This document shows, piece by piece, positions 3,483-50,087 of a DNA stretch of 64,000 bases; the first letter of the stretch is position 1, and each line of letters starts with the position of its first letter. The translations under genes were made by a program, and so were the position numbers. The stretch is from Verrucomicrobiota bacterium (GTDB lineage: Bacteria > Verrucomicrobiota > Verrucomicrobiia > Limisphaerales > Palsa-1400), in contig JBEKYR010000003.1 in assembly GCA_049510745.1 (NCBI GenBank), forward strand, positions 32,001 through 96,000, read 5' to 3'. A model generated the notes under the pieces. It was not told the DNA's origin. It searched no databases and saw only the letters and a list, made by a program, of their open reading frames with translations.

Positions 3483-4190
3483 CTACCGGGGTTCGGGATC
3501 GGAGAGGCCGTTGTTGCCGAATTGCTGGCCGTTGCCCTCCGCGTCCGATGGCGGCGGCTCGGTTGGGGCGGGGGCCTGGCCGGCTTCAGTGGACGGCGGA
3601 ACGGCGCCGGTCTCGGAGGCGCGCGGGTTCCTGGCGCGCTTGGCCCGGGGCAGGGGGCTGAGCATGATGTTGATGCCCTTGCCAATCAGCTTGGCCGGGG
3701 CGTCGGGATGGCCGAAGAGGGTGAGGCACTTGACGAGTTTTTCGACTTGCTGGAAACCAAATTCCTTGTGCGCCATCTCGCGGCCGCGGAAGCGCAAGGT
3801 GACCTTCACCTTCATGTCTTCGCACAGGAAATCAATGGCGTGCTGGAGTTTGACGCCAAAATCGTGCGGGTCGATGTTGGGGCTGAGTTGGATTTCCTTG
3901 ACCTTGTTGGCGTGCTGGTGTTTGCGGGCTTCCTTCTCCTGCTTGGCTTGTTCGTAGCGGAATTTTCCGAAATCGACCAGCCGGCAGACCGGCGGCGTGG
4001 CGTTGGCGGCAATCTCAACCAAATCAACCCCCCTGGCACGGGCCATGCTAATGGCTTCGCCCAAGGGCATGACGCCCAGGTTTTTTTGATCGTCGTCGAT
4101 CACCCGGACTTCGCGGGCACGAATCTTGCCGTTGACACGCGTGAACGAGGCGGGCGGGGAAAAATTACGGGGAGAGAAAGGGCGACTCAA
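3483..4190 (-). CDS. infC: translation initiation factor IF-3
   Basis: RVNGKIRAREVRVID, DLVEIAANATPPVCRLVDFGKFRYE, KVKVTLRFRGRE. Apparent TTG start; Pro-rich C-terminal tail. Confidence 0.95.
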   Translation of the reverse strand: MSRPFSPRNFSPPASFTRVNGKIRAREVRVIDDDQKNLGVMPLGEAISMARARGVDLVEIAANATPPVCRLVDFGKFRYEQAKQEKEARKHQHANKVKEIQLSPNIDPHDFGVKLQHAIDFLCEDMKVKVTLRFRGREMAHKEFGFQQVEKLVKCLTLFGHPDAPAKLIGKGINIMLSPLPRAKRARNPRASETGAVPPSTEAGQAPAPTEPPPSDAEGNGQQFGNNGLSDPEPR

Positions 4191-10276: not shown

Positions 10277-10698
10277 GGCGCTTTTCCCAACGCAATTCGC
10301 TGGTGACGCTCAACGAGATCAACATCACGCCGCTGCTGGACCTGGCGTTTGTGCTCTTGATCATCTTCATCATCACCCGGCCCTTGCTGGAGGGAAGCGT
10401 CGATATGCAATTGCCGCAAAACATGGGCAAGCCCGACACGCGCAACATCGACCGCCACAATATCCGGGTGGTGGAAATCAGCCCGCGCGGCGAATACTGG
10501 CTGCAAGGCCGGCGCCTCTCGCTGGCGCAGTTGGAGGGGGAACTGGCGCGCACCCACCGCGAAAACCCAAGGCTCATCGTCGATATCCGCGCCGACAAAC
10601 GCACCCAATGGGACTATGTCATCGCCGTGATTGACTCCTGTTTGCGCAACAGCATCACCCAGTTTTCGGCGCGCACCGCGCCCACCCAGCACCCATGA
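10273..10698 (+). CDS. tolR: TolR/ExbD biopolymer transport protein
   Basis: MRRFSQRNSLVTLNEINITPLLDLAFVLLIIFII and IRADK. ATGA overlap with the tolQ stop; the upstream extension in the ORF track is spurious. Confidence 0.85.
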   Translation: MRRFSQRNSLVTLNEINITPLLDLAFVLLIIFIITRPLLEGSVDMQLPQNMGKPDTRNIDRHNIRVVEISPRGEYWLQGRRLSLAQLEGELARTHRENPRLIVDIRADKRTQWDYVIAVIDSCLRNSITQFSARTAPTQHP

Positions 10699-29618: not shown

Positions 29619-29803
29619 TCAGGCTTCAGATACGAAGCCGATATAAAGACAGATTCCGTCCGCGAAGCAAAGCAATTCCGCATGGCAATTCCGAATGGGA
29701 CGCATGCGGGGGCCAAAAATAAAGGGCCAAAAATAAAGCTTGCATTTTGGCGGGGAACGGGGCAGGTTTCGGTCAGCTTTAGATTGCGTTGTCCAATTCC
29801 AAC

Positions 29804-29865
29804 ATGGTGAATCTTCAAGTGAACTTGGTTCAGTGATGATTTGAAACCCGACAGACGGGAACAGT
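29804..29865 (+). ncRNA. candidate structured cis-regulatory leader RNA of RRM gene (copy 1)
   Basis: 51/62 identical to 49915-49854; two conserved hairpins; ends 41 nt before the RRM start. Confidence 0.65.
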
Positions 29866-29906
29866 TCCGGGAAGCCGCCAGCGATTCTAAAACCATTAGA
29901 AGACAA

Positions 29907-30218
29907 ATGAATACGAAATTGTACGTGGGAAATCTTTCCTTCGACACCACCGAGAACGATCTGCAAGATCTGTTCCAGCAGCATGGCCCCGTTTCCGAGG
30001 TGAATCTTATCACCGACCGCATGAGCGGCCGCTCGCGCGGCTTCGCCTTTGTGACCATGGCCACGCCGGAAGGCGCCCAGGCCGCCATTCAAGCCCTGGC
30101 GGGCAAGGATGTGCAGGGCCGCGCCTTGACCGTCAATGAAGCGCGTCCGCGCGAAGAGAACGCCCCTCCCCGAGGCGGTGGTGGCGGCGGCCAGCGCCGT
30201 CAGTACTCACGCCGTTAA
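29907..30218 (+). CDS. RRM-domain RNA-binding protein with Gly/Arg tail
   Basis: RNP2 [12 protein letters not shown]1 [21 protein letters not shown]. Confidence 0.95.
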
Positions 30219-33548: not shown

Positions 33549-36500
33549 ATGAAACGGGTCCCCAAACAACTGGCGCCCCCGGCGCTTTGCGGGGTGGTGT
33601 TCGCGTGGCTGGCCGCTGCGGCGGCCCACGCGCAAACCGACCCGGCCATCACCCAGCAACCCGCCGACCAGGCGGTTGTGGTCGGAAGCCAGGTGACACT
33701 GACTGTGGGGGTGTCCGGCACGGGCCCCTTTACCTACCAATGGCGACTTAACGGCACGAACCTACCGAAAGTCATCACTACTGTGGCGGGCAATGCGAAT
33801 ACCGGTTACTCCGGGGATGGCGGGGCGGCAACCAACGCCAAGCTGAATTCCCCAGCCGGTGTCGCTATCGACGCCTTCGGCAACTTGTTTATTGCGGATT
33901 CGCGAAACAATCGCATTCGCAAAGTGGGAACCAATGGCATCATCACCACCGTGGCTGGGAAAACGGCGCCGGGTTCCTCGGGTGATGGCGGCGCTGCCAC
34001 CAATGCCACCTTGAGCGATCCTTCCGGCGTGGCGGCGGACGCCTTCGGCAACGTGTTCATTGCGGATGCAAATAACAACCGCCTCCGCGAAGTCGGAACC
34101 AATGGCATCATCGCTACCGTGGCTGGGAAGACGTCGGGTTTCTCCGGCGACGGCGGCGCGGCAACCAATGCCCAGTTGAATGATCCTTCCGGCGTGGCAG
34201 TGGATGCCGCCGGCGACCTGTTCATCGCGGACAGTGTTAATAGCCGCATCCGCGAAGTCGGAACGAACGGCATCATCAATACCGTGGCGGGGAATGGCAC
34301 GAACGGTTTCTCCGGCGATGGCGGGGCGGCAACCAATGCCAAGCTGAATTCCCCTGCCGGTGTCGCTATCGACGCCTTCGGCAACCTGTTCATTGCGGAT
34401 ACGGGAAACAATCGCATCCGCGAAGTTGGAACCAGCGGCATTATCACCACCGTGGCAGGGAAAGCGACGGCGAGTTACTTCGGCGATGGCGGGTTGGCAA
34501 CCAACGCCAGCTTGAACCGTCCCCAAGGCGTCAGCGTGGACGCCTTCGGCAACGTGTTTATTGCGGATACCCAAAACAATCGGATTCGAGAAGTGGCAAC
34601 CAACGGCATCATCACCACCGTAGTCGGGAATGGCAGCAGTGGTTACTCGGGCGACGGAGGCAATCCGACCAACACCAGCATTTACGCTCCTCAGGGTCTC
34701 AGCGTGGACGCCTTCGGCAACCTGTTCATTGCGGATACCTATAACAACCGCATCCGCAAAGCTTTCATCCAAGGGCCAACGCTCCAGCTCAATAACATGA
34801 GTTCGAACACCGCGGGCGGTTACGACGTGATCGTGACCGGCGCCAACGGCAGCGTGACCAGCAGCGTGGCGACGGTGACGGTGCTCTTGCCGCCAAGCAT
34901 CACGGCGCAACCGCAAGCCGTTGCGGCAGTGGGCGGGAGCGACGTTAGTTTGACAGTGGCGGTGGCGGGCACGGCCCCGTTCGGCTACCAATGGCAGTTC
35001 GACGGGACCAATCTTGTGGATAACGGCCAGATAACGGGTTCGCAGACGAACGCGCTCTCGCTCAGTTCGATCGACCTTACCGATCAAGGCTCCTACGAGG
35101 TCATCGTGACCAACGCTTACGGCAGCGTCACCAGCAGCGTCGCGACGCTGACCTTGCTCCTGCCGCCGAGCATCACCACGCAGCCGCAAGGCGGCACCGC
35201 GACGAACGGCAGCAACGTGGCGTTGACGGTGGCTGTTTCCGGCACCGCCCCGTTCACTTACCAATGGCGGCAGAACGGCGCCAATCTTCCGACGGTCATT
35301 ACGACAGTGGCGGGCAACGGCGCCAGCGGTTACGCCGGTGACAACGGGCCGGCGACCAATGCCAGCCTCACTTATGCGACCTCGGTGGCTGTGGATGCCT
35401 CCGGCAATTTGTTTATCGGGGATGCGGGCAACTGCCACATCCGCAAAGTGAGAACCAACGGTATTATCTCCACGGTGGCGGGAAACGGGAGCGATTTTTA
35501 CTCTGGGGACGGCGGCGCTGCTACCGGCGCCGGCCTCGACCCCTATTGCGTGGTGGTGGACGCCTCCGGCAACCTCTTCGTCGCGGACATGTTTAATAAC
35601 CGTGTTCGCAAAATCGGGACCAATGGCACTATCTCCACGGTGGCGGGTGCTGGCACCCAAGGATTCTCCGGCGACGGCGGCGCGGCGACCAGCGCCAAGC
35701 TGCGCTTTCCCTGGTGTGCGGCTCTGGACGCTTCGGGCAATTTGTTCATCGCCGATAGCGGCAACAACCGCATCCGCAAGGTCACCAACGGCATCATCAA
35801 TACCGTGGCGGGCAATGGCACCAATGGCTGCTCCGGCGATGGCGGGTTGGCAACCAATGCCGCACTGGGCAATCCGGAAGGCGTGACAGTGGATGCCCTG
35901 GGCAACCTCTTCATTGCCGATTTTAACAACAATCGCATCCGCAAAGTGGGGACCAACGGCATCATTACCACGGTCGCGGGCGGCGGCATCGACTACCCGG
36001 GCGATGGTGGCGCAGCCACCAATGCCAGCTTGTGCAATCCCTCGGGTGTGGCGGTGGACGCCTTCGGCAACCTCTTCATTGCGGACGGTGGCGACAACCG
36101 CATCCGAGAAGTGACCACCAACGGCGTCATTACCACCGTGGCGGGCGGCGGAATCCACATCCCCGGCGACGGCGGCGCAGCCACCGGCGCCGCATTATAC
36201 GCACCCTCTGGCGTGAGCGTCGATGCCGCCGGCGACTTGTTTATCGCCGATACCGGCAACAACCGCATCCGCGAAGTCCCCATCCCGGGACCGACCCTGG
36301 CGCTCCACGGGGTGACGGCTGGGAACGACGGCAGCTACGACGTGATCGTGAGCAATGCCTACGGCTGCGTGACCAGTGACGTCGCGGTCCTGACCGTGCA
36401 GGGGCCGCCGCCGTCGATTAGTGTTCAACCGCAAGACGGCCTGGCGGTGGTGGGGGGAACCTTCACCTTGACAGTGGCGGTATCCGGCCCCGGCCCGTTC

Positions 36501-37901
36501 ACCTGCCAATGGCAGGGCAACGGCGTCAATCTTCCCAGCCTCATTACGACCGTGGCGGGCGGCGGCACCAACAACTTCGGCGATGGTGGGGCGGCGACCA
36601 ATGCCTCACTACTCCAACCGTTTGGCGCGGCGGTGGATGCCTTTGGAAATCTGTTTATTGCGGATCGAAACCGAAACAACATCCGCAAAGTGGGAACCAA
36701 CGGCATCATCAACACTGTGGCCGGCAGCGCCGTCGGTGTCGTCGGTTACCTCGGAGATGGCTCCCCAGCCATTGCGGCTTTGCTGGCACTGCCTTGTGGG
36801 GTGGCCGTGGATCCCTATGGCAATCTGTTCATTGCGGATACGTTTTTCAGCCATATCCGCAAGGTGTCTAACGTCAGCCCCTACGACATCTCGACCGTGG
36901 CGGGCGTGGCGGGCAAAATCACCAATGGCTATTCCGGCGACGGCGTTGCGGCCACGAACACCCCCCTCAACGGACCTTATGATGTCGTGCTGGACGCCTC
37001 CGGCAGCCTGCTCATTGCCGACACATTCAACCACCGAATTCGCAGAGTGCCAAACAACGGCCTCATCTTCACCGTCGCCGGCATCGGGACCAACAGCTAC
37101 TCCGGCGACGGCGGCCCCGCCACCAATGCCGCGATCAACACGCCGTGCGGAGTGGCAGCGGACGCGTTGGGAAATTTCTTCATTGCGGATACGAGCAACA
37201 ACTGCGTCCGCGTCGTGGACACCAACGGCATCATTACGACCGTGGCCGGGACGGGGACGCCGGGTTTCTCCGGCGATGGCGGCGCCGCCACCAATGCCAG
37301 CCTGGCGCTTCCTCAGGGCGTGGCGGTGGATGCCTTTGGAAATTTGTTCATTGCGGACACCGGCAACAACTGCATCCGCGTCGTGGACGGCAACGGAATC
37401 ATTACGACCGTGGCGGGGAATGGCACGAACGGTTTCTCCGGCGATGGCGGCGCCGCCACGAATGCCAGCCTGGACCTTCCTTCCCGCGTGGCCGTGGACG
37501 CCTATGGCAACCTGTTCATTGCGGACCTTGCCAACCGGCGCATCCGCAAAGTGAGTATCCAAACGCCCATCTTGCAGCTCAGTCAAATTGCCGCCGGCAG
37601 TGCGGGCGTTTATGACCTAGTGGTGTCCAACGCCTACGGGGCCGTCACCAGCGCGGTGGTCACGCTGACGGTGGCGCTTCCGCCGTTCAGCGCCGGCCTC
37701 AGCGCCGGGCAAGGGGTGCAATTCCAATTCAGCGGCACAGCGAATTCCAGCTACGTCTTGCAGGCGGCGACCGACCTCACGCCGCCGGTCAATTGGCAGC
37801 CGCTGGTCACCAACGCCGCCGACACCAACGGCAATTGGACCTTCACCGACACGAACACCGCGGCCAACACGGCGCGCTTTTACCGCCTGGCGTCGCCCTG
37901 A
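33549..37901 (+). CDS. secreted NHL-repeat / immunoglobulin-domain protein
   Basis: Signal peptide; Ig segments (ITQQP...FTYQW...YDVIVT..GSVTS); many NHL/teneurin-like repeats (TVAGNG..GFSGDGGAATNA.L..PxGVAVD..GNLFIAD..NNRIR); C-terminal ...RFYRL domain; GAGGAGG RBS. Confidence 0.92.
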   Translation: MKRVPKQLAPPALCGVVFAWLAAAAAHAQTDPAITQQPADQAVVVGSQVTLTVGVSGTGPFTYQWRLNGTNLPKVITTVAGNANTGYSGDGGAATNAKLNSPAGVAIDAFGNLFIADSRNNRIRKVGTNGIITTVAGKTAPGSSGDGGAATNATLSDPSGVAADAFGNVFIADANNNRLREVGTNGIIATVAGKTSGFSGDGGAATNAQLNDPSGVAVDAAGDLFIADSVNSRIREVGTNGIINTVAGNGTNGFSGDGGAATNAKLNSPAGVAIDAFGNLFIADTGNNRIREVGTSGIITTVAGKATASYFGDGGLATNASLNRPQGVSVDAFGNVFIADTQNNRIREVATNGIITTVVGNGSSGYSGDGGNPTNTSIYAPQGLSVDAFGNLFIADTYNNRIRKAFIQGPTLQLNNMSSNTAGGYDVIVTGANGSVTSSVATVTVLLPPSITAQPQAVAAVGGSDVSLTVAVAGTAPFGYQWQFDGTNLVDNGQITGSQTNALSLSSIDLTDQGSYEVIVTNAYGSVTSSVATLTLLLPPSITTQPQGGTATNGSNVALTVAVSGTAPFTYQWRQNGANLPTVITTVAGNGASGYAGDNGPATNASLTYATSVAVDASGNLFIGDAGNCHIRKVRTNGIISTVAGNGSDFYSGDGGAATGAGLDPYCVVVDASGNLFVADMFNNRVRKIGTNGTISTVAGAGTQGFSGDGGAATSAKLRFPWCAALDASGNLFIADSGNNRIRKVTNGIINTVAGNGTNGCSGDGGLATNAALGNPEGVTVDALGNLFIADFNNNRIRKVGTNGIITTVAGGGIDYPGDGGAATNASLCNPSGVAVDAFGNLFIADGGDNRIREVTTNGVITTVAGGGIHIPGDGGAATGAALYAPSGVSVDAAGDLFIADTGNNRIREVPIPGPTLALHGVTAGNDGSYDVIVSNAYGCVTSDVAVLTVQGPPPSISVQPQDGLAVVGGTFTLTVAVSGPGPFTCQWQGNGVNLPSLITTVAGGGTNNFGDGGAATNASLLQPFGAAVDAFGNLFIADRNRNNIRKVGTNGIINTVAGSAVGVVGYLGDGSPAIAALLALPCGVAVDPYGNLFIADTFFSHIRKVSNVSPYDISTVAGVAGKITNGYSGDGVAATNTPLNGPYDVVLDASGSLLIADTFNHRIRRVPNNGLIFTVAGIGTNSYSGDGGPATNAAINTPCGVAADALGNFFIADTSNNCVRVVDTNGIITTVAGTGTPGFSGDGGAATNASLALPQGVAVDAFGNLFIADTGNNCIRVVDGNGIITTVAGNGTNGFSGDGGAATNASLDLPSRVAVDAYGNLFIADLANRRIRKVSIQTPILQLSQIAAGSAGVYDLVVSNAYGAVTSAVVTLTVALPPFSAGLSAGQGVQFQFSGTANSSYVLQAATDLTPPVNWQPLVTNAADTNGNWTFTDTNTAANTARFYRLASP

Positions 37902-40371: not shown

Positions 40372-42918
40372 TTACCCTTCCTTCCTTCCCTTCCACTCCT
40401 CAAGTTGGGCGCGGACTTTGTCGGCACCAGGGATCTTGAGAACCTCGTAGATGTTCAATGCGGCTTCGGCGCGGGAAATGGCCTGAACGCGCTCGCCCAC
40501 TTTGTCCAAAGCCAGCGCGGAGTTGAAAAGATTAGCAGCCTCGCCACGTCGGTTGCCAATCTCGCGGTCTATCACCAGAGCCTCGTCAAAATGCTCGATG
40601 GCCTTGCGGATTTCACCCAACTCGGCATAAGCAATGCCGATATTGCAAAGGGCGATGCCTTCGCCGCGTCGGTCGCCGATTTCATAAGTGATGAGCAGTT
40701 GTTGCTCAAAAAACTCAATTGCGTTGAGGCCTTCGTCCAGCTTGGTATAGGCAATGCCAAGACAGCCGAGTATGTTGCCTTCGGCCTGCCGGTCGCCGAT
40801 TTCACGAGTGATAATCCGTGCCCGCTGGTAAAATTCGATAGCCTTGCGCACATCCCCCAATTTAGCGTAGGCGTTGCCAAGATTGCCGAGGGCGTTGCCC
40901 TCGCCACGCCGGTCGCCGATTTCACGAGTGATAACCAACGATTGCTCGAAAAGCTCGACAGCCTTCTGCCGCTCGTCCAAGTTGGAGTAGGAGAGGCCAA
41001 GATTGCCGAGGGCGTTGCCTTCTCCGCGCCGGTCACCAAGCACTCGATGGATCCCCTGCGCCTGCTGGTAAAATTCAATAGCCTTGCGCACATCGCCCAA
41101 TTTAGCGTAGGCGTTGCCAAGATTGCCGAGGGCGTTGGCCTCTGCCGCTCGATTTTTAGTGATCTTGGCAGCTTCACGCTGGCCCTCGCACCAACGGATG
41201 CTTTGGCCGGGATGGAAACGCAAGAGCAGCCCAGTATAAACGACCGAGTTCACGAGCCTTACGAGCATGGCGGCTGAGGATGCGTCGCGCCGATTCGCTA
41301 GCCACTCGTATGCGGCTTCTATGTGATTGCGTTCACGATCGAAAACTTCCAGGGCCCGGAGCAAGTTATTGCCGCCTTTAAGATAGAGTTCCTGGGCTTC
41401 CCTTCCGACCTCGGTGTAATGTTTAGCGTAACGAATCATGGCAGCGTCCCGTTCTGCTTCGCTCAATTTTCCATCGCAAAACTGTCGCACCAAGTCATGC
41501 AGTCGAAGCCGAACTTTCGTGTCATCAATTTCCACCAGACTCCCCTTCAAGAGCGCCTCCATGACGTCACGCGTCAATTCGGTTTTCGTTTCCCAAATCG
41601 CGGCGGCTGCCGGAAGATTAAAACCGGTCGGAAAAATGGCCAGCAAAGTCCAGCAGCGGCGCAAAGGTTCCTTCAGCAGGTCGTAACTGAGTTGAAAGGC
41701 GGCCTCCACTTTGCCGAGCTTCATTTCGTGTTTGCGGAGCCGGGCCACCAATTCTTCCACCGAATGCAGAGCTTTCTCACTGACCACGCCGGCGAAGACT
41801 TCCAGGGCCAGCGGCAGATGGCCGCAGAGGTCGGCGGCGACGGCTTCGTGGCCTGCCAAGCGCGGCGCGAGCTTGAGCAGCAGTTCCCGCGACTCTTCGG
41901 GCGGCAGGCAATCAATGTTTCGCGTCGCCAGTCCGGGCAGCGAGAATTGGTTGCGGGAGGTGACCAGGAACAGGCAATTCGGCGGCGGCAAGAGCGGCTG
42001 GATTTGTTCGGCATTGGCGGCATTGTCCAGAAAGAGCAGCACACGCCCGGCCTCGTTGAGCACGGAGATGTAGATGGATGTCAAATCTTCCGCCGTTTCC
42101 GGCAATTTGGCTTCCGGTTGAAAGAAGTGAATGATGTTCTGCATGGCTTCAGCCGGCGGCATCGGTTTGTGGCCCGTTGGATCAAAGCCGCGCAAATTCA
42201 GGCAAATCTGGGCATCCGGGTATTGCGTCTTGAGCCGGTGGGCCAGCACTGTGGCCAGCGCCGTTTTGCCCACCCCGCCCATCCCCTGAATCCCCGCCCC
42301 CGACGCCGAGATCGCTGCGCCGATGTTGCCCTGCGCCGCCAGCGCCTTTTCCAGGTACTTCAACTCCTCTTCGCGCCCGGTGAACGCCGCCGGCGCCGCC
42401 GGCAATTGATGCAGCGCAGACAAAGACCGCTGGTCTGTTTCGGGTTTGAGGCGCAGTTTTACGTCCGCAAGCGCCTGGACAATCTTGGCTCTGAGATCAT
42501 CGGGCGACTTGAACTTCTGATGTACCCGTCCTTTGCTCGCACGGGCCTTGAATTTCTTCAGTTTTCGCTGCGCTGCTTTGCCGACCTCAACGTCGCCTCC
42601 CTTCACCGGGTGATCGTCGTCCATGATGAAGACAAGGATCGTCTTTCCTCCCTCAACGGCCCGATTGAACTCCATTTCGGTTATCGAAATATCGCTGCCG
42701 TCCGGCACCCAGCCATATCGCCAGGCATAAATGCCGATGTATATATCCGCCTCATCGACCATTTCCAGCGAAGCGGCAACGCCCGACGCATCCCGCGCCG
42801 GAAGATGCTCCATGCCAATCGGGTGGAGGCCTGTGCTCAAGCAGGCTTCGATGGCCTGCTTTCGGTGCTCAGGCAGATCGACCGCCGTGCTGCTGATCAT
42901 GGCCTTTAAGATGCTCAT
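40372..42918 (-). CDS. DUF4062 - NB-ARC (STAND ATPase) - TPR protein, NLR-like
   Basis: N-terminal ISSTAVDLPEHR...YIGIYAWRYG..SITEMEF (DUF4062); FTGREEEL; Walker A GMGGVGKT; Walker B LLFLDNA; VTSR; HLPLAL; LHDLVR; TPR repeats (GDRRGEGNALGNLGNAY). Confidence 0.88.
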   Translation of the reverse strand: MSILKAMISSTAVDLPEHRKQAIEACLSTGLHPIGMEHLPARDASGVAASLEMVDEADIYIGIYAWRYGWVPDGSDISITEMEFNRAVEGGKTILVFIMDDDHPVKGGDVEVGKAAQRKLKKFKARASKGRVHQKFKSPDDLRAKIVQALADVKLRLKPETDQRSLSALHQLPAAPAAFTGREEELKYLEKALAAQGNIGAAISASGAGIQGMGGVGKTALATVLAHRLKTQYPDAQICLNLRGFDPTGHKPMPPAEAMQNIIHFFQPEAKLPETAEDLTSIYISVLNEAGRVLLFLDNAANAEQIQPLLPPPNCLFLVTSRNQFSLPGLATRNIDCLPPEESRELLLKLAPRLAGHEAVAADLCGHLPLALEVFAGVVSEKALHSVEELVARLRKHEMKLGKVEAAFQLSYDLLKEPLRRCWTLLAIFPTGFNLPAAAAIWETKTELTRDVMEALLKGSLVEIDDTKVRLRLHDLVRQFCDGKLSEAERDAAMIRYAKHYTEVGREAQELYLKGGNNLLRALEVFDRERNHIEAAYEWLANRRDASSAAMLVRLVNSVVYTGLLLRFHPGQSIRWCEGQREAAKITKNRAAEANALGNLGNAYAKLGDVRKAIEFYQQAQGIHRVLGDRRGEGNALGNLGLSYSNLDERQKAVELFEQSLVITREIGDRRGEGNALGNLGNAYAKLGDVRKAIEFYQRARIITREIGDRQAEGNILGCLGIAYTKLDEGLNAIEFFEQQLLITYEIGDRRGEGIALCNIGIAYAELGEIRKAIEHFDEALVIDREIGNRRGEAANLFNSALALDKVGERVQAISRAEAALNIYEVLKIPGADKVRAQLEEWKGRKEG

Positions 42919-49156: not shown

Positions 49157-49372
49157 CTATTTCAGCCGCCACGTAATGCGGGCTTTGCTCAGGTCGTAGG
49201 GGGACATCTCCATTTTGACGCGGTCGCCGACGGTCAGGCGGACCCAGCGTTTGCGCATCTTGCCGCAGATGGTGGCCAGCACGAGATGTTTGTTGTCCAG
49301 TTCCACCCGGAACATCGTTCCCGGCAGCACGGTTTGGACACAGCCTTCGACTTCAATGTGTTCTTCCTTCAT
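49157..49372 (-). CDS. infA: translation initiation factor IF-1
   Basis: [11 protein letters not shown]...[21 protein letters not shown]...[16 protein letters not shown]. Confidence 0.95.
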
Positions 49373-49444
49373 TGGCAAATTCCGTCATGCAACCGGTCTC
49401 TGGCGAAGGCGCGCCCCGCAGACCGGCAAATCCGCAAGCGGCCG

Positions 49445-49483
49445 TGAAAAGGGATCGAGGCCCGGCCAATCCGGGCCTCGATC
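49445..49483 (-). terminator. intrinsic terminator after the second RRM gene
   Basis: Minus strand GATCGAGGCCCGG-ATTGG-CCGGGCCTCGATC followed by CCTTTTC. Confidence 0.75.
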
Positions 49484-49499: not shown

Positions 49500-49814
49500 C
49501 TAGTAGCGGTCACGTCCGCCGCCGCGATATTCGCGACGACCGCCGCCGCCGCCGGCGGGCCGCTCTTCGCGGGGCTTGGCGGTGTTGACGGTCAGGGCGC
49601 GGCCGTCAACGGACTTGCCGTTGAGGGCTTCGGTGGCTTTCTGCGCCTCTTCAGGAGTGCTCATGGTGACGAAGGCAAACCCGCGGGGACGGCCGGTGGT
49701 CCGGTCCATCATCAGGTTGGTTTCCAGGACGGTGCCGTGGGCGGCAAAGGCGTCCTGCAGGTCGTTTTCAGTGGTGTTGAAGGAAAGGTTTCCGACAAAC
49801 AATTTATTACTCAT
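49500..49814 (-). CDS. RRM-domain RNA-binding protein with Gly/Arg tail
   Basis: [49 protein letters not shown]. Confidence 0.95.
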
Positions 49815-49853
49815 GTGATGTTTAACTGTCCTACTAACCGTTGCTTTCTGCAG

Positions 49854-49915
49854 ACTGTTCCCGGTCATCGGGATTAAAATCATCACTGAACTGAGTTCAC
49901 CTGAGGATTCGCCAT
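49854..49915 (-). ncRNA. candidate structured cis-regulatory leader RNA of RRM gene (copy 2)
   Basis: 51/62 identical to 29804-29865; same hairpins; ends 39 nt before the RRM start. Confidence 0.65.
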
Positions 49916-50087
49916 ATCTTGAAAGTGACAAGCTTCCGAACAGGAAGCCAAGATGGCCCCATCCGGCGGAATAGCAAGATATATTTACAACTATTTTTCC
50001 TGGAGAGGGATGCGGCCGGCGAGCCGGGGCGCCGCAGCGCGGTTTGAGTTGGCCCTGGAGCGGGTTTTGTGAGAGGGTTTGGCCCCG

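What the first reader, a model, noticed from the sequence alone, without database searches (positions are those of the whole stretch)
29804..29865. Conserved structured leader shared by both RRM RNA-binding protein genes: candidate undescribed cis-regulatory RNA
Seen: ATGGTGAATCTTCAAGTGAACTTGGTTCAGTGATGATTTGAAACCCGACAGACGGGAACAGT (29804-29865, +) and ATGGCGAATCCTCAGGTGAACTCAGTTCAGTGATGATTTTAATCCCGATGACCGGGAACAGT (49915-49854, -) align without gaps at 51/62. Each ends about 40 nt before an RRM start codon, and the flanking non-coding DNA is not similar. Both fold the same way: outer stem AATC-y-TCA / TGA-T-GATT, inner hairpin TGAAC-nnn-GTTCA, then CCCG-5nt-CGGG. All 11 differences fall outside the predicted pairs, though there is no compensatory change, so covariation is unproven. 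Known: cyanobacterial rbp (RRM) genes and cspA are cold-regulated through their 5' UTRs. Inference: an autoregulatory RRM-binding element or RNA thermometer for this lineage. I do not recognise it as a named family.
Basis: partly seen in the sequence, partly recalled or inferred. Interest (0 to 1): 0.85.

Follow-up and report, generated by a model that had tools for sequence, protein, structure and literature searches.

The report
Cold-gene leader switch in Verrucomicrobia
The repeated stretch is part of a real, apparently uncatalogued folded RNA at the front of RNA-binding-protein genes and, less often, of other genes linked to cold growth in Verrucomicrobia; in many copies it can refold to cover the start codon, so it probably works as an on/off switch for making these proteins.

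Summary
Confirmed and larger than reported. The 62-nt match is the core of a 130-nt leader behind a promoter-like site, folding as a three-way junction. It has no Rfam match. A covariance model finds it in 31 of 31 genomes of the family, 106 of 121 of the order and in other classes. 75 of 79 family hits precede RRM genes; the exceptions are mostly IF1, IF3, DEAD-box helicase and desaturase genes. Pairs co-change on a tree, though no single pair passed my stricter test. Window copy 2 is predicted to fold open first and closed later; copy 1 lacks the closed form. Best reading: a cspA-like translational switch for cold-acclimation genes, possibly reset by the RRM proteins; untested. The scan has noted what is probably the same leader on other DNA (e1-6943098).

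The parts
29740..29768 (+). Promoter-like site of copy 1 (-35 hexamer 29740-29745, 17-nt spacer, -10-like hexamer 29763-29768); predicted start near 29775
   Evidence: Sequence; similar sites before 104 of 112 homologs in a permissive search; the strict consensus scan found none. Inferred, not mapped.
29789..29877 (+). Copy 1 of the three-way-junction RNA: P1 about 29795-29806 with 29862-29871 (weak, shifted register), P2 29809-29842, junction 29843-29846, P3 29847-29859
   Evidence: Model R1 hit, 80 bits; structure
29833..29842 (+). 3' strand of P2 in copy 1 (the 'box'); only a weak partner at 29889-29898, no predicted closed fold
   Evidence: Duplex -5.7 kcal/mol, z about 0
29907..30218 (+). 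RRM gene 1, 103 aa with Gly-rich tail
   Evidence: PF00076 E 8e-24; NF058537 101 bits, cut-off 100
49950..49977 (-). Promoter-like site of copy 2 (-35 hexamer 49977-49972, 16-nt spacer, -10-like hexamer 49955-49950); predicted start near 49944
   Evidence: RNA contigs of relatives stop near 49930 (weak hint); strict scan found none
49842..49930 (-). Copy 2 of the three-way-junction RNA: P1 49924-49913 with 49857-49848, P2 49910-49877, junction 49876-49873, P3 49872-49860
   Evidence: Model R1 hit, 84.9 bits
49877..49886 (-). Box of copy 2: pairs upstream in the open fold or with the start-codon region in the closed fold
49811..49823 (-). Anti-box: bases just before and over the start codon (49814-49812), complementary to the box
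   Evidence: Duplex -10.4 kcal/mol, z -2.5 to -2.7
49500..49814 (-). RRM gene 2, 104 aa with Gly/Arg-rich tail
   Evidence: PF00076 E 3e-22; NF058537 95.9 bits, below cut-off
49157..49378 (-). infA (translation initiation factor IF1) directly downstream of RRM gene 2
   Evidence: PF01176, TIGR00008; infA follows the RRM gene in 22 of 106 loci examined

Best explanation
A cis-acting 5' leader of about 130 nt that controls translation of cold-acclimation genes by alternative folding. During transcription P2 and P3 form first and P1 closes a three-way junction, leaving the start codon free (open form). Once the start-codon region is made, the 3' strand of P2 can instead pair with it (closed form); P2 carries a mismatch that the anti-box lacks. 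The closed form is near-equal or slightly lower in energy but lies behind a barrier, so cold would keep new transcripts open, and warmth or accumulated RRM chaperone would close them (negative feedback). Shown by computation: conserved structure, position, gene context, box/anti-box complementarity and covariation. Inferred: transcription start, switching in the cell, cold as signal, RRM as trigger. My odds: real structured leader 0.95; functional closed form in most copies 0.7; cold link 0.7; RRM feedback 0.5.
For: Position: 116 of 121 pattern matches have an RRM gene downstream, 114 of them at 36-58 nt; 75 of 79 family model hits. Structure: 25 of 28 pairs have two-sided changes in 61 copies; co-changes on a tree 75.6 against 31.5 (random partners) and 42.5 (within helix), p 2e-4; G-U against A-C at paired columns 248:40. 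Closed form: box/start-region duplex -10.2 against -6.1 shuffled, 98 of 112 better than shuffle; at or below -10 in 60% against 5.7% of 878 control starts; own box fits own start region better than permuted, p 2e-4 in 23 divergent copies, 5e-5 in 112, with clear matched changes in L163, L182, L108, L015. GGAG before the start in 1 of 112. Copy 2: P2 in all prefixes, closed form 2-3.5 kcal/mol lower at full length, barrier 17-21. Context: non-RRM genes behind the motif are IF1 (6 loci), IF3 (1), DEAD-box helicase (1), desaturase (2, plus a cut third). IF1 and IF3 are cold-induced in E. coli (PMC7873864, passages); Bacteroides RRM genes show cold feedback partly through the 5' UTR (PMC13370968, section 11). 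No cold-shock-domain gene in this genome, 6 of 31 in the family.
Against: Window copy 1 and the C37 copy lack the complementarity (z about 0) and copy 1 has no predicted closed fold; 42 of 112 do not reach z -1.64. Among 25 variant boxes, own beat consensus in 11 and lost in 12. Only 36 of 112 are predicted mainly closed at 37 C, and equilibrium does not shift with temperature. No single pair was significant in my R-scape-like test (best E 1.3); on the MAFFT-only alignment the within-helix test was marginal (p about 0.04, up to 0.12). Sequences are related, many were picked by pattern, and alignment A3 is fitted to the model. Several non-RRM cases carry RRM stubs (L117, L186, L265), so they may be operon deletions rather than recruitment. 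92 of 121 genomes of the order keep a cold-shock-domain gene and 0 of 10 such loci carry the motif. Some motif copies precede unrelated ORFs (L141, L243).
Confidence: 0.55

Rival explanations
1. A fixed three-way junction that the RRM proteins bind for auto- and cross-repression, without a change of fold; the anti-box is a second copy of a binding word.
For: Junction bases are the most conserved; about 95% of hits precede RRM genes; copy 1 has the junction but no closed form; feedback in Bacteroides.
Against: Start regions follow the complement of their own box rather than the 5' strand of P2 in divergent copies (L108, L163, L182).
Confidence: 0.2
2. A metabolite- or ion-binding riboswitch: the junction is the aptamer (ligand holds the open form), the anti-box the expression platform.
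For: Aptamer-like conservation of junction bases with variable loops; mutually exclusive folds; several non-homologous downstream families.
Against: The genes share a stress, not a pathway; P2 can shrink to a few pairs (L168, L178); no Rfam riboswitch scores even at E 10.
Confidence: 0.1
3. A stability element: the fold buries the 5' end and sets mRNA half-life, as reported for the Anabaena rbpA1 leader; the anti-box is secondary.
For: P1 extends to the predicted 5' end in many copies; titles on rbpA1 5' UTR and transcript accumulation seen in a reference list.
Against: Does not explain box/start-region covariation.
Confidence: 0.11
4. A DNA-level palindromic repressor site, or an independent small RNA.
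For: The inner stem is a palindrome; Bacteroides feedback is partly transcriptional.
Against: Spacer 0-32 nt and G-U bias 248:40; compensatory changes; RNA contigs bridge motif and coding region; no terminator-like site after the motif.
Confidence: 0.04

Closest known systems
Chlorobi-RRM RNA motif (Rfam RF01697; PMC2864571, table rows and part of the alignment seen)
   Same: Conserved structured element scored as cis-regulatory, named for RRM genes
   Different: Other phylum, no sequence or model match; ours also precedes IF1, IF3, helicase and desaturase genes and has a start-codon-covering alternative
E. coli cspA mRNA thermosensor (Rfam RF01766; PMC7873864 and PMC9947658, passages)
   Same: Works like it in the proposed model: a better-translated cold form and a closed 37 C form, tied to an RNA chaperone gene
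   Different: No model match; compact 90-nt junction, no Shine-Dalgarno, RRM instead of cold-shock domain, found before several gene families; not found at 10 csp loci
Bacteroides rbpA/B/C 5' UTRs (PMC13370968, passages and section 11)
   Same: RRM-1 genes, leaders of 122-155 nt, negative feedback in the cold partly through the UTR
   Different: No structure or element defined in the parts read; thermosensing left as an open question; sequence homology not tested
Cyanobacterial rbpA1 5' UTR (Sato and Nakamura 1998; Ehira 2005; titles only, in a reference list)
   Same: Cold regulation of an RRM gene through its leader
   Different: Reported at transcript-accumulation level by title; homology not tested

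Membership tests
Chlorobi-RRM (RF01697) | Match to the covariance model | tested here: not met
   No match at E 10 locally or E 1 in the genome
Chlorobi-RRM (RF01697) | Upstream of RRM genes | tested here: met
Chlorobi-RRM (RF01697) | Found in Chlorobi | tested here: not met
   Named records are Verrucomicrobiota or oddly labelled MAGs; none Chlorobi
cspA thermoregulator (RF01766) | Match to the model | tested here: not met
cspA thermoregulator (RF01766) | Upstream of a cold-shock-domain gene | tested here: not met
   No such gene in the genome; 0 of 10 csp loci have our motif
cspA thermoregulator (RF01766) | Two folds differing in access to the start region | tested here: inconclusive
   Predicted for copy 2, not copy 1; covariation
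cspA thermoregulator (RF01766) | Fold depends on temperature of synthesis | not testable with these tools
   Equilibrium model shows no shift; kinetics need experiment
Zipper-type RNA thermometers | Weak hairpin over a Shine-Dalgarno site that melts with heat | tested here: not met
   GGAG in 1 of 112 start regions; no predicted shift
Known riboswitches (FMN considered; resemblance recalled) | Match to an Rfam aptamer model | tested here: not met
Riboswitches in general | Specific ligand binding | not testable with these tools
   Needs in-line probing
Kink-turn (definition recalled) | Conserved tandem G-A/A-G pairs | tested here: not met
   30 of 61 copies

The most novel reading that the evidence does not exclude
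A portable, phylum-wide RNA switch whose conserved junction senses a small molecule or ion that reports cold or translational stress, and which co-regulates non-homologous cold-acclimation genes (RRM, IF1, IF3, DEAD-box helicase, desaturase) by covering the start codon of mRNAs that lack a Shine-Dalgarno site: a new riboswitch class defining a cold regulon.
Probability: 0.1. Interest if true: 0.92.

Novelty: new variant of a known kind. Interest (0 to 1): 0.64.

Why it matters
How bacterial RRM genes are switched on in the cold is open: the Bacteroides preprint lists thermosensing by rbp leaders as a key unanswered question. This motif gives a compact element with a defined open and closed form and specific compensatory tests, in an abundant soil and freshwater phylum with few described regulatory RNAs. 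Its presence before several unrelated cold-linked genes, and in two 0.9-Mb genomes, suggests a shared and hard-to-lose control element. It would also show start-codon masking as a switch in mRNAs without a Shine-Dalgarno site.

Tried and rejected
Rfam at gathering and E 10: only chance hits to CRISPR repeats and C/D snoRNAs. FMN-variant idea (recalled resemblance): no match. Kink-turn: 30 of 61; a slipped register of P2 pairs in 43-54 of 61 and is not excluded. Equilibrium thermometer: no shift. My R-scape-like test: nothing significant (home-made, rate-weighted null, probably conservative). Own-versus-consensus box test: 11 against 12. Viral contigs: 0 pattern matches. Strict promoter and terminator scans: no promoter at either copy. 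Model R2 added a few RRM-linked hits in other classes but mostly noise below about 22 bits. Most phylum genomes have RRM genes without a hit (RRM 149 of 151; R1 22 of 151, strict filters): not found in those searched, not absent. Taxonomy of oddly labelled records could not be read. Read data were contigs of relatives with no DNA control, so they give no start, strand or level. Earlier-findings look-ups by sequence, place and one word set gave nothing.

Full report
Observation. The two stretches match at 51 of 62 positions and lie 41 and 39 nt before RRM_1 genes. Folding of each 62-mer is as described but no better than shuffles. Rfam gave nothing at gathering score over the window, and only chance hits at E 10 around the copies. 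The genome has four RRM genes; my model finds the element at three of them and nowhere else at E 1.

Distribution. 116 of 121 have an RRM gene downstream on the same strand. The other five are a contig end, one chance hit, infC, an RRM stub followed by a desaturase-like ORF, and an unknown ORF. Model R1 was built from 87 sequences that I chose from 112; those 112 came from 147 leaders after removing near-duplicates (122 left) and 10 rows under 50% identity to the consensus. R1 hits 31 of 31 family genomes (79 hits), 106 of 121 in the order and 22 of 151 in the phylum. Of 29 phylum loci inspected, 24 precede RRM genes, including all 21 at 28 bits or more. In the family 75 of 79 hits precede RRM genes and 75 of 121 RRM matches have a hit; the rest include paralog clades with other leaders. 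RRM genes occur in 149 of 151 phylum genomes, so many lineages have diverged beyond the model or lost the element.

Anatomy. RNA contigs of relatives bridge the motif and the coding region, and three from two studies stop at 49930-49931; this is a weak hint only. In 87 MAFFT-aligned copies 88.6% of cells pair and 12 of 29 pairs show two-sided changes; in 61 model-aligned, more divergent copies 25 of 28 do. On a tree, paired columns co-change 75.6 times against 31.5 and 42.5 for re-dealt partners (p 2e-4); on the MAFFT-only set 28.2 against 13.5 and 20.5 (p about 0.001 and 0.04). My stricter per-pair test found nothing significant, although the top three ranks were predicted pairs. G-U outnumbers A-C 248 to 40, as expected for RNA on the sense strand. 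The best-kept bases are at the junction; the distal part of P2 varies or is lost.

Alternative fold. The bases before the start codon are often the reverse complement of the 3' strand of P2. Duplex energies average -10.2 against -6.1 for shuffles; 70 of 112 reach z -1.64. CATCA lies in 50% of these start regions against 1.4% of 878 heuristically chosen, noisy control starts. Own pairs beat permuted pairs in both sets, although related sequences inflate the p-values and a direct own-versus-consensus test split 11 to 12. Copy 2 forms P2 in all short prefixes; the closed form takes over when the anti-box appears, 2-3.5 kcal/mol lower, behind a 17-21 kcal/mol path. Copy 1 and the C37 copy lack this. 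At 37 C, 55 of 112 are predicted mainly open and 36 mainly closed, with little change from 10 C. A Shine-Dalgarno core is nearly absent.

Gene context. In the family the four non-RRM hits are a DEAD-box helicase with a decayed RRM-like start, two infA genes with their own promoter-like sites, and one weak chance hit. In 15 order genomes picked because they had many hits, 46 of 55 precede RRM genes, 4 infA, 2 desaturases, 1 another ORF, and 2 are cut or without ORF. Among 106 RRM loci (some duplicated, not random), infA follows in 22, a helicase in 6, infC in 5, a desaturase in 1. IF1 and IF3 are cold-induced in E. coli (PMC7873864, passages); the cold link of DEAD-box helicases and desaturases is recalled, not from a call. 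Cold-shock-domain genes are missing here and in 25 of 31 family genomes but present in 92 of 121 in the order.

Mechanism and rivals. The best fit is a translational switch like cspA, whose cold form is translated better than its 37 C form (PMC7873864, PMC9947658, passages), possibly closed by RRM feedback as in Bacteroides (PMC13370968, passages and section 11). A fixed RRM-binding junction, a stability element and a riboswitch remain open; a DNA site is unlikely.

Novelty. It is not a member of RF01697 or RF01766. Nine paper searches (listings) showed no description. Term searches of the main texts of PMC11109978, PMC8632094 and PMC5737381 found no RRM or Verrucomicrobia; one supplement of PMC8632094 had none; the supplements of the other two could not be read and could hold it. 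Of PMC2864571 I saw table rows and supplement excerpts; of PMC6091082 passages. The library lacks most subscription papers. Verdict: a real, apparently uncatalogued leader family, a new variant of a known kind; function untested.

Noticed in passing
L003 (G000:C22, before the RRM gene at 10441) and 24 family loci: The fourth RRM paralog has a different, shorter conserved leader: a hairpin, then a stem around a CCC/GGG hairpin that resembles the P1-P3 core without P2; a CCC loop could pair with a downstream GGG as a pseudoknot. Not hit by R1 or R2.
   Followed up: partly
L157 (G000:C37:39898-39987, -): Third, diverged copy of the motif before a third RRM gene, with compensatory changes in the inner stem and no anti-box.
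   Followed up: yes
window 49447-49483 (-): Strong GC-rich hairpin with a short U run between RRM gene 2 and infA; not called by the terminator scan. In relatives single RNA contigs hold both genes.
   Followed up: no
window 29672-29738: Two short tandem duplications (13 and 14 nt) just upstream of the copy 1 promoter-like site.
   Followed up: no
L186 1450-1570 (-), L117, L265: Leader kept while the RRM gene decayed to a stub or a degenerate N-terminus in front of a DEAD-box helicase or desaturase.
   Followed up: partly
L158, L161: Two complete 0.9-Mb genomes keep both the RRM gene and the motif.
   Followed up: no
G000 C3, C4, C8: The genome holds three infA-like genes; only the window one follows an RRM gene with the motif.
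   Followed up: no
L036, L071, L080, L095, L141 and others: Records labelled Bifidobacteriaceae, Akkermansia muciniphila, Limnocylindria, Methylomirabilota or Sulfotelmatobacter carry the motif; genome sizes of 3.6-6.7 Mb suggest mislabelled Verrucomicrobiota.
   Followed up: partly
window 33804-37526 and 40595-41137: Coding tandem repeats of 165-168 nt and of 120 nt; protein families not checked.
   Followed up: no
window 3555-4190: tRNA-Leu(CAG) of 94 nt beside an infC-like gene on the opposite strand, without the motif.
   Followed up: no
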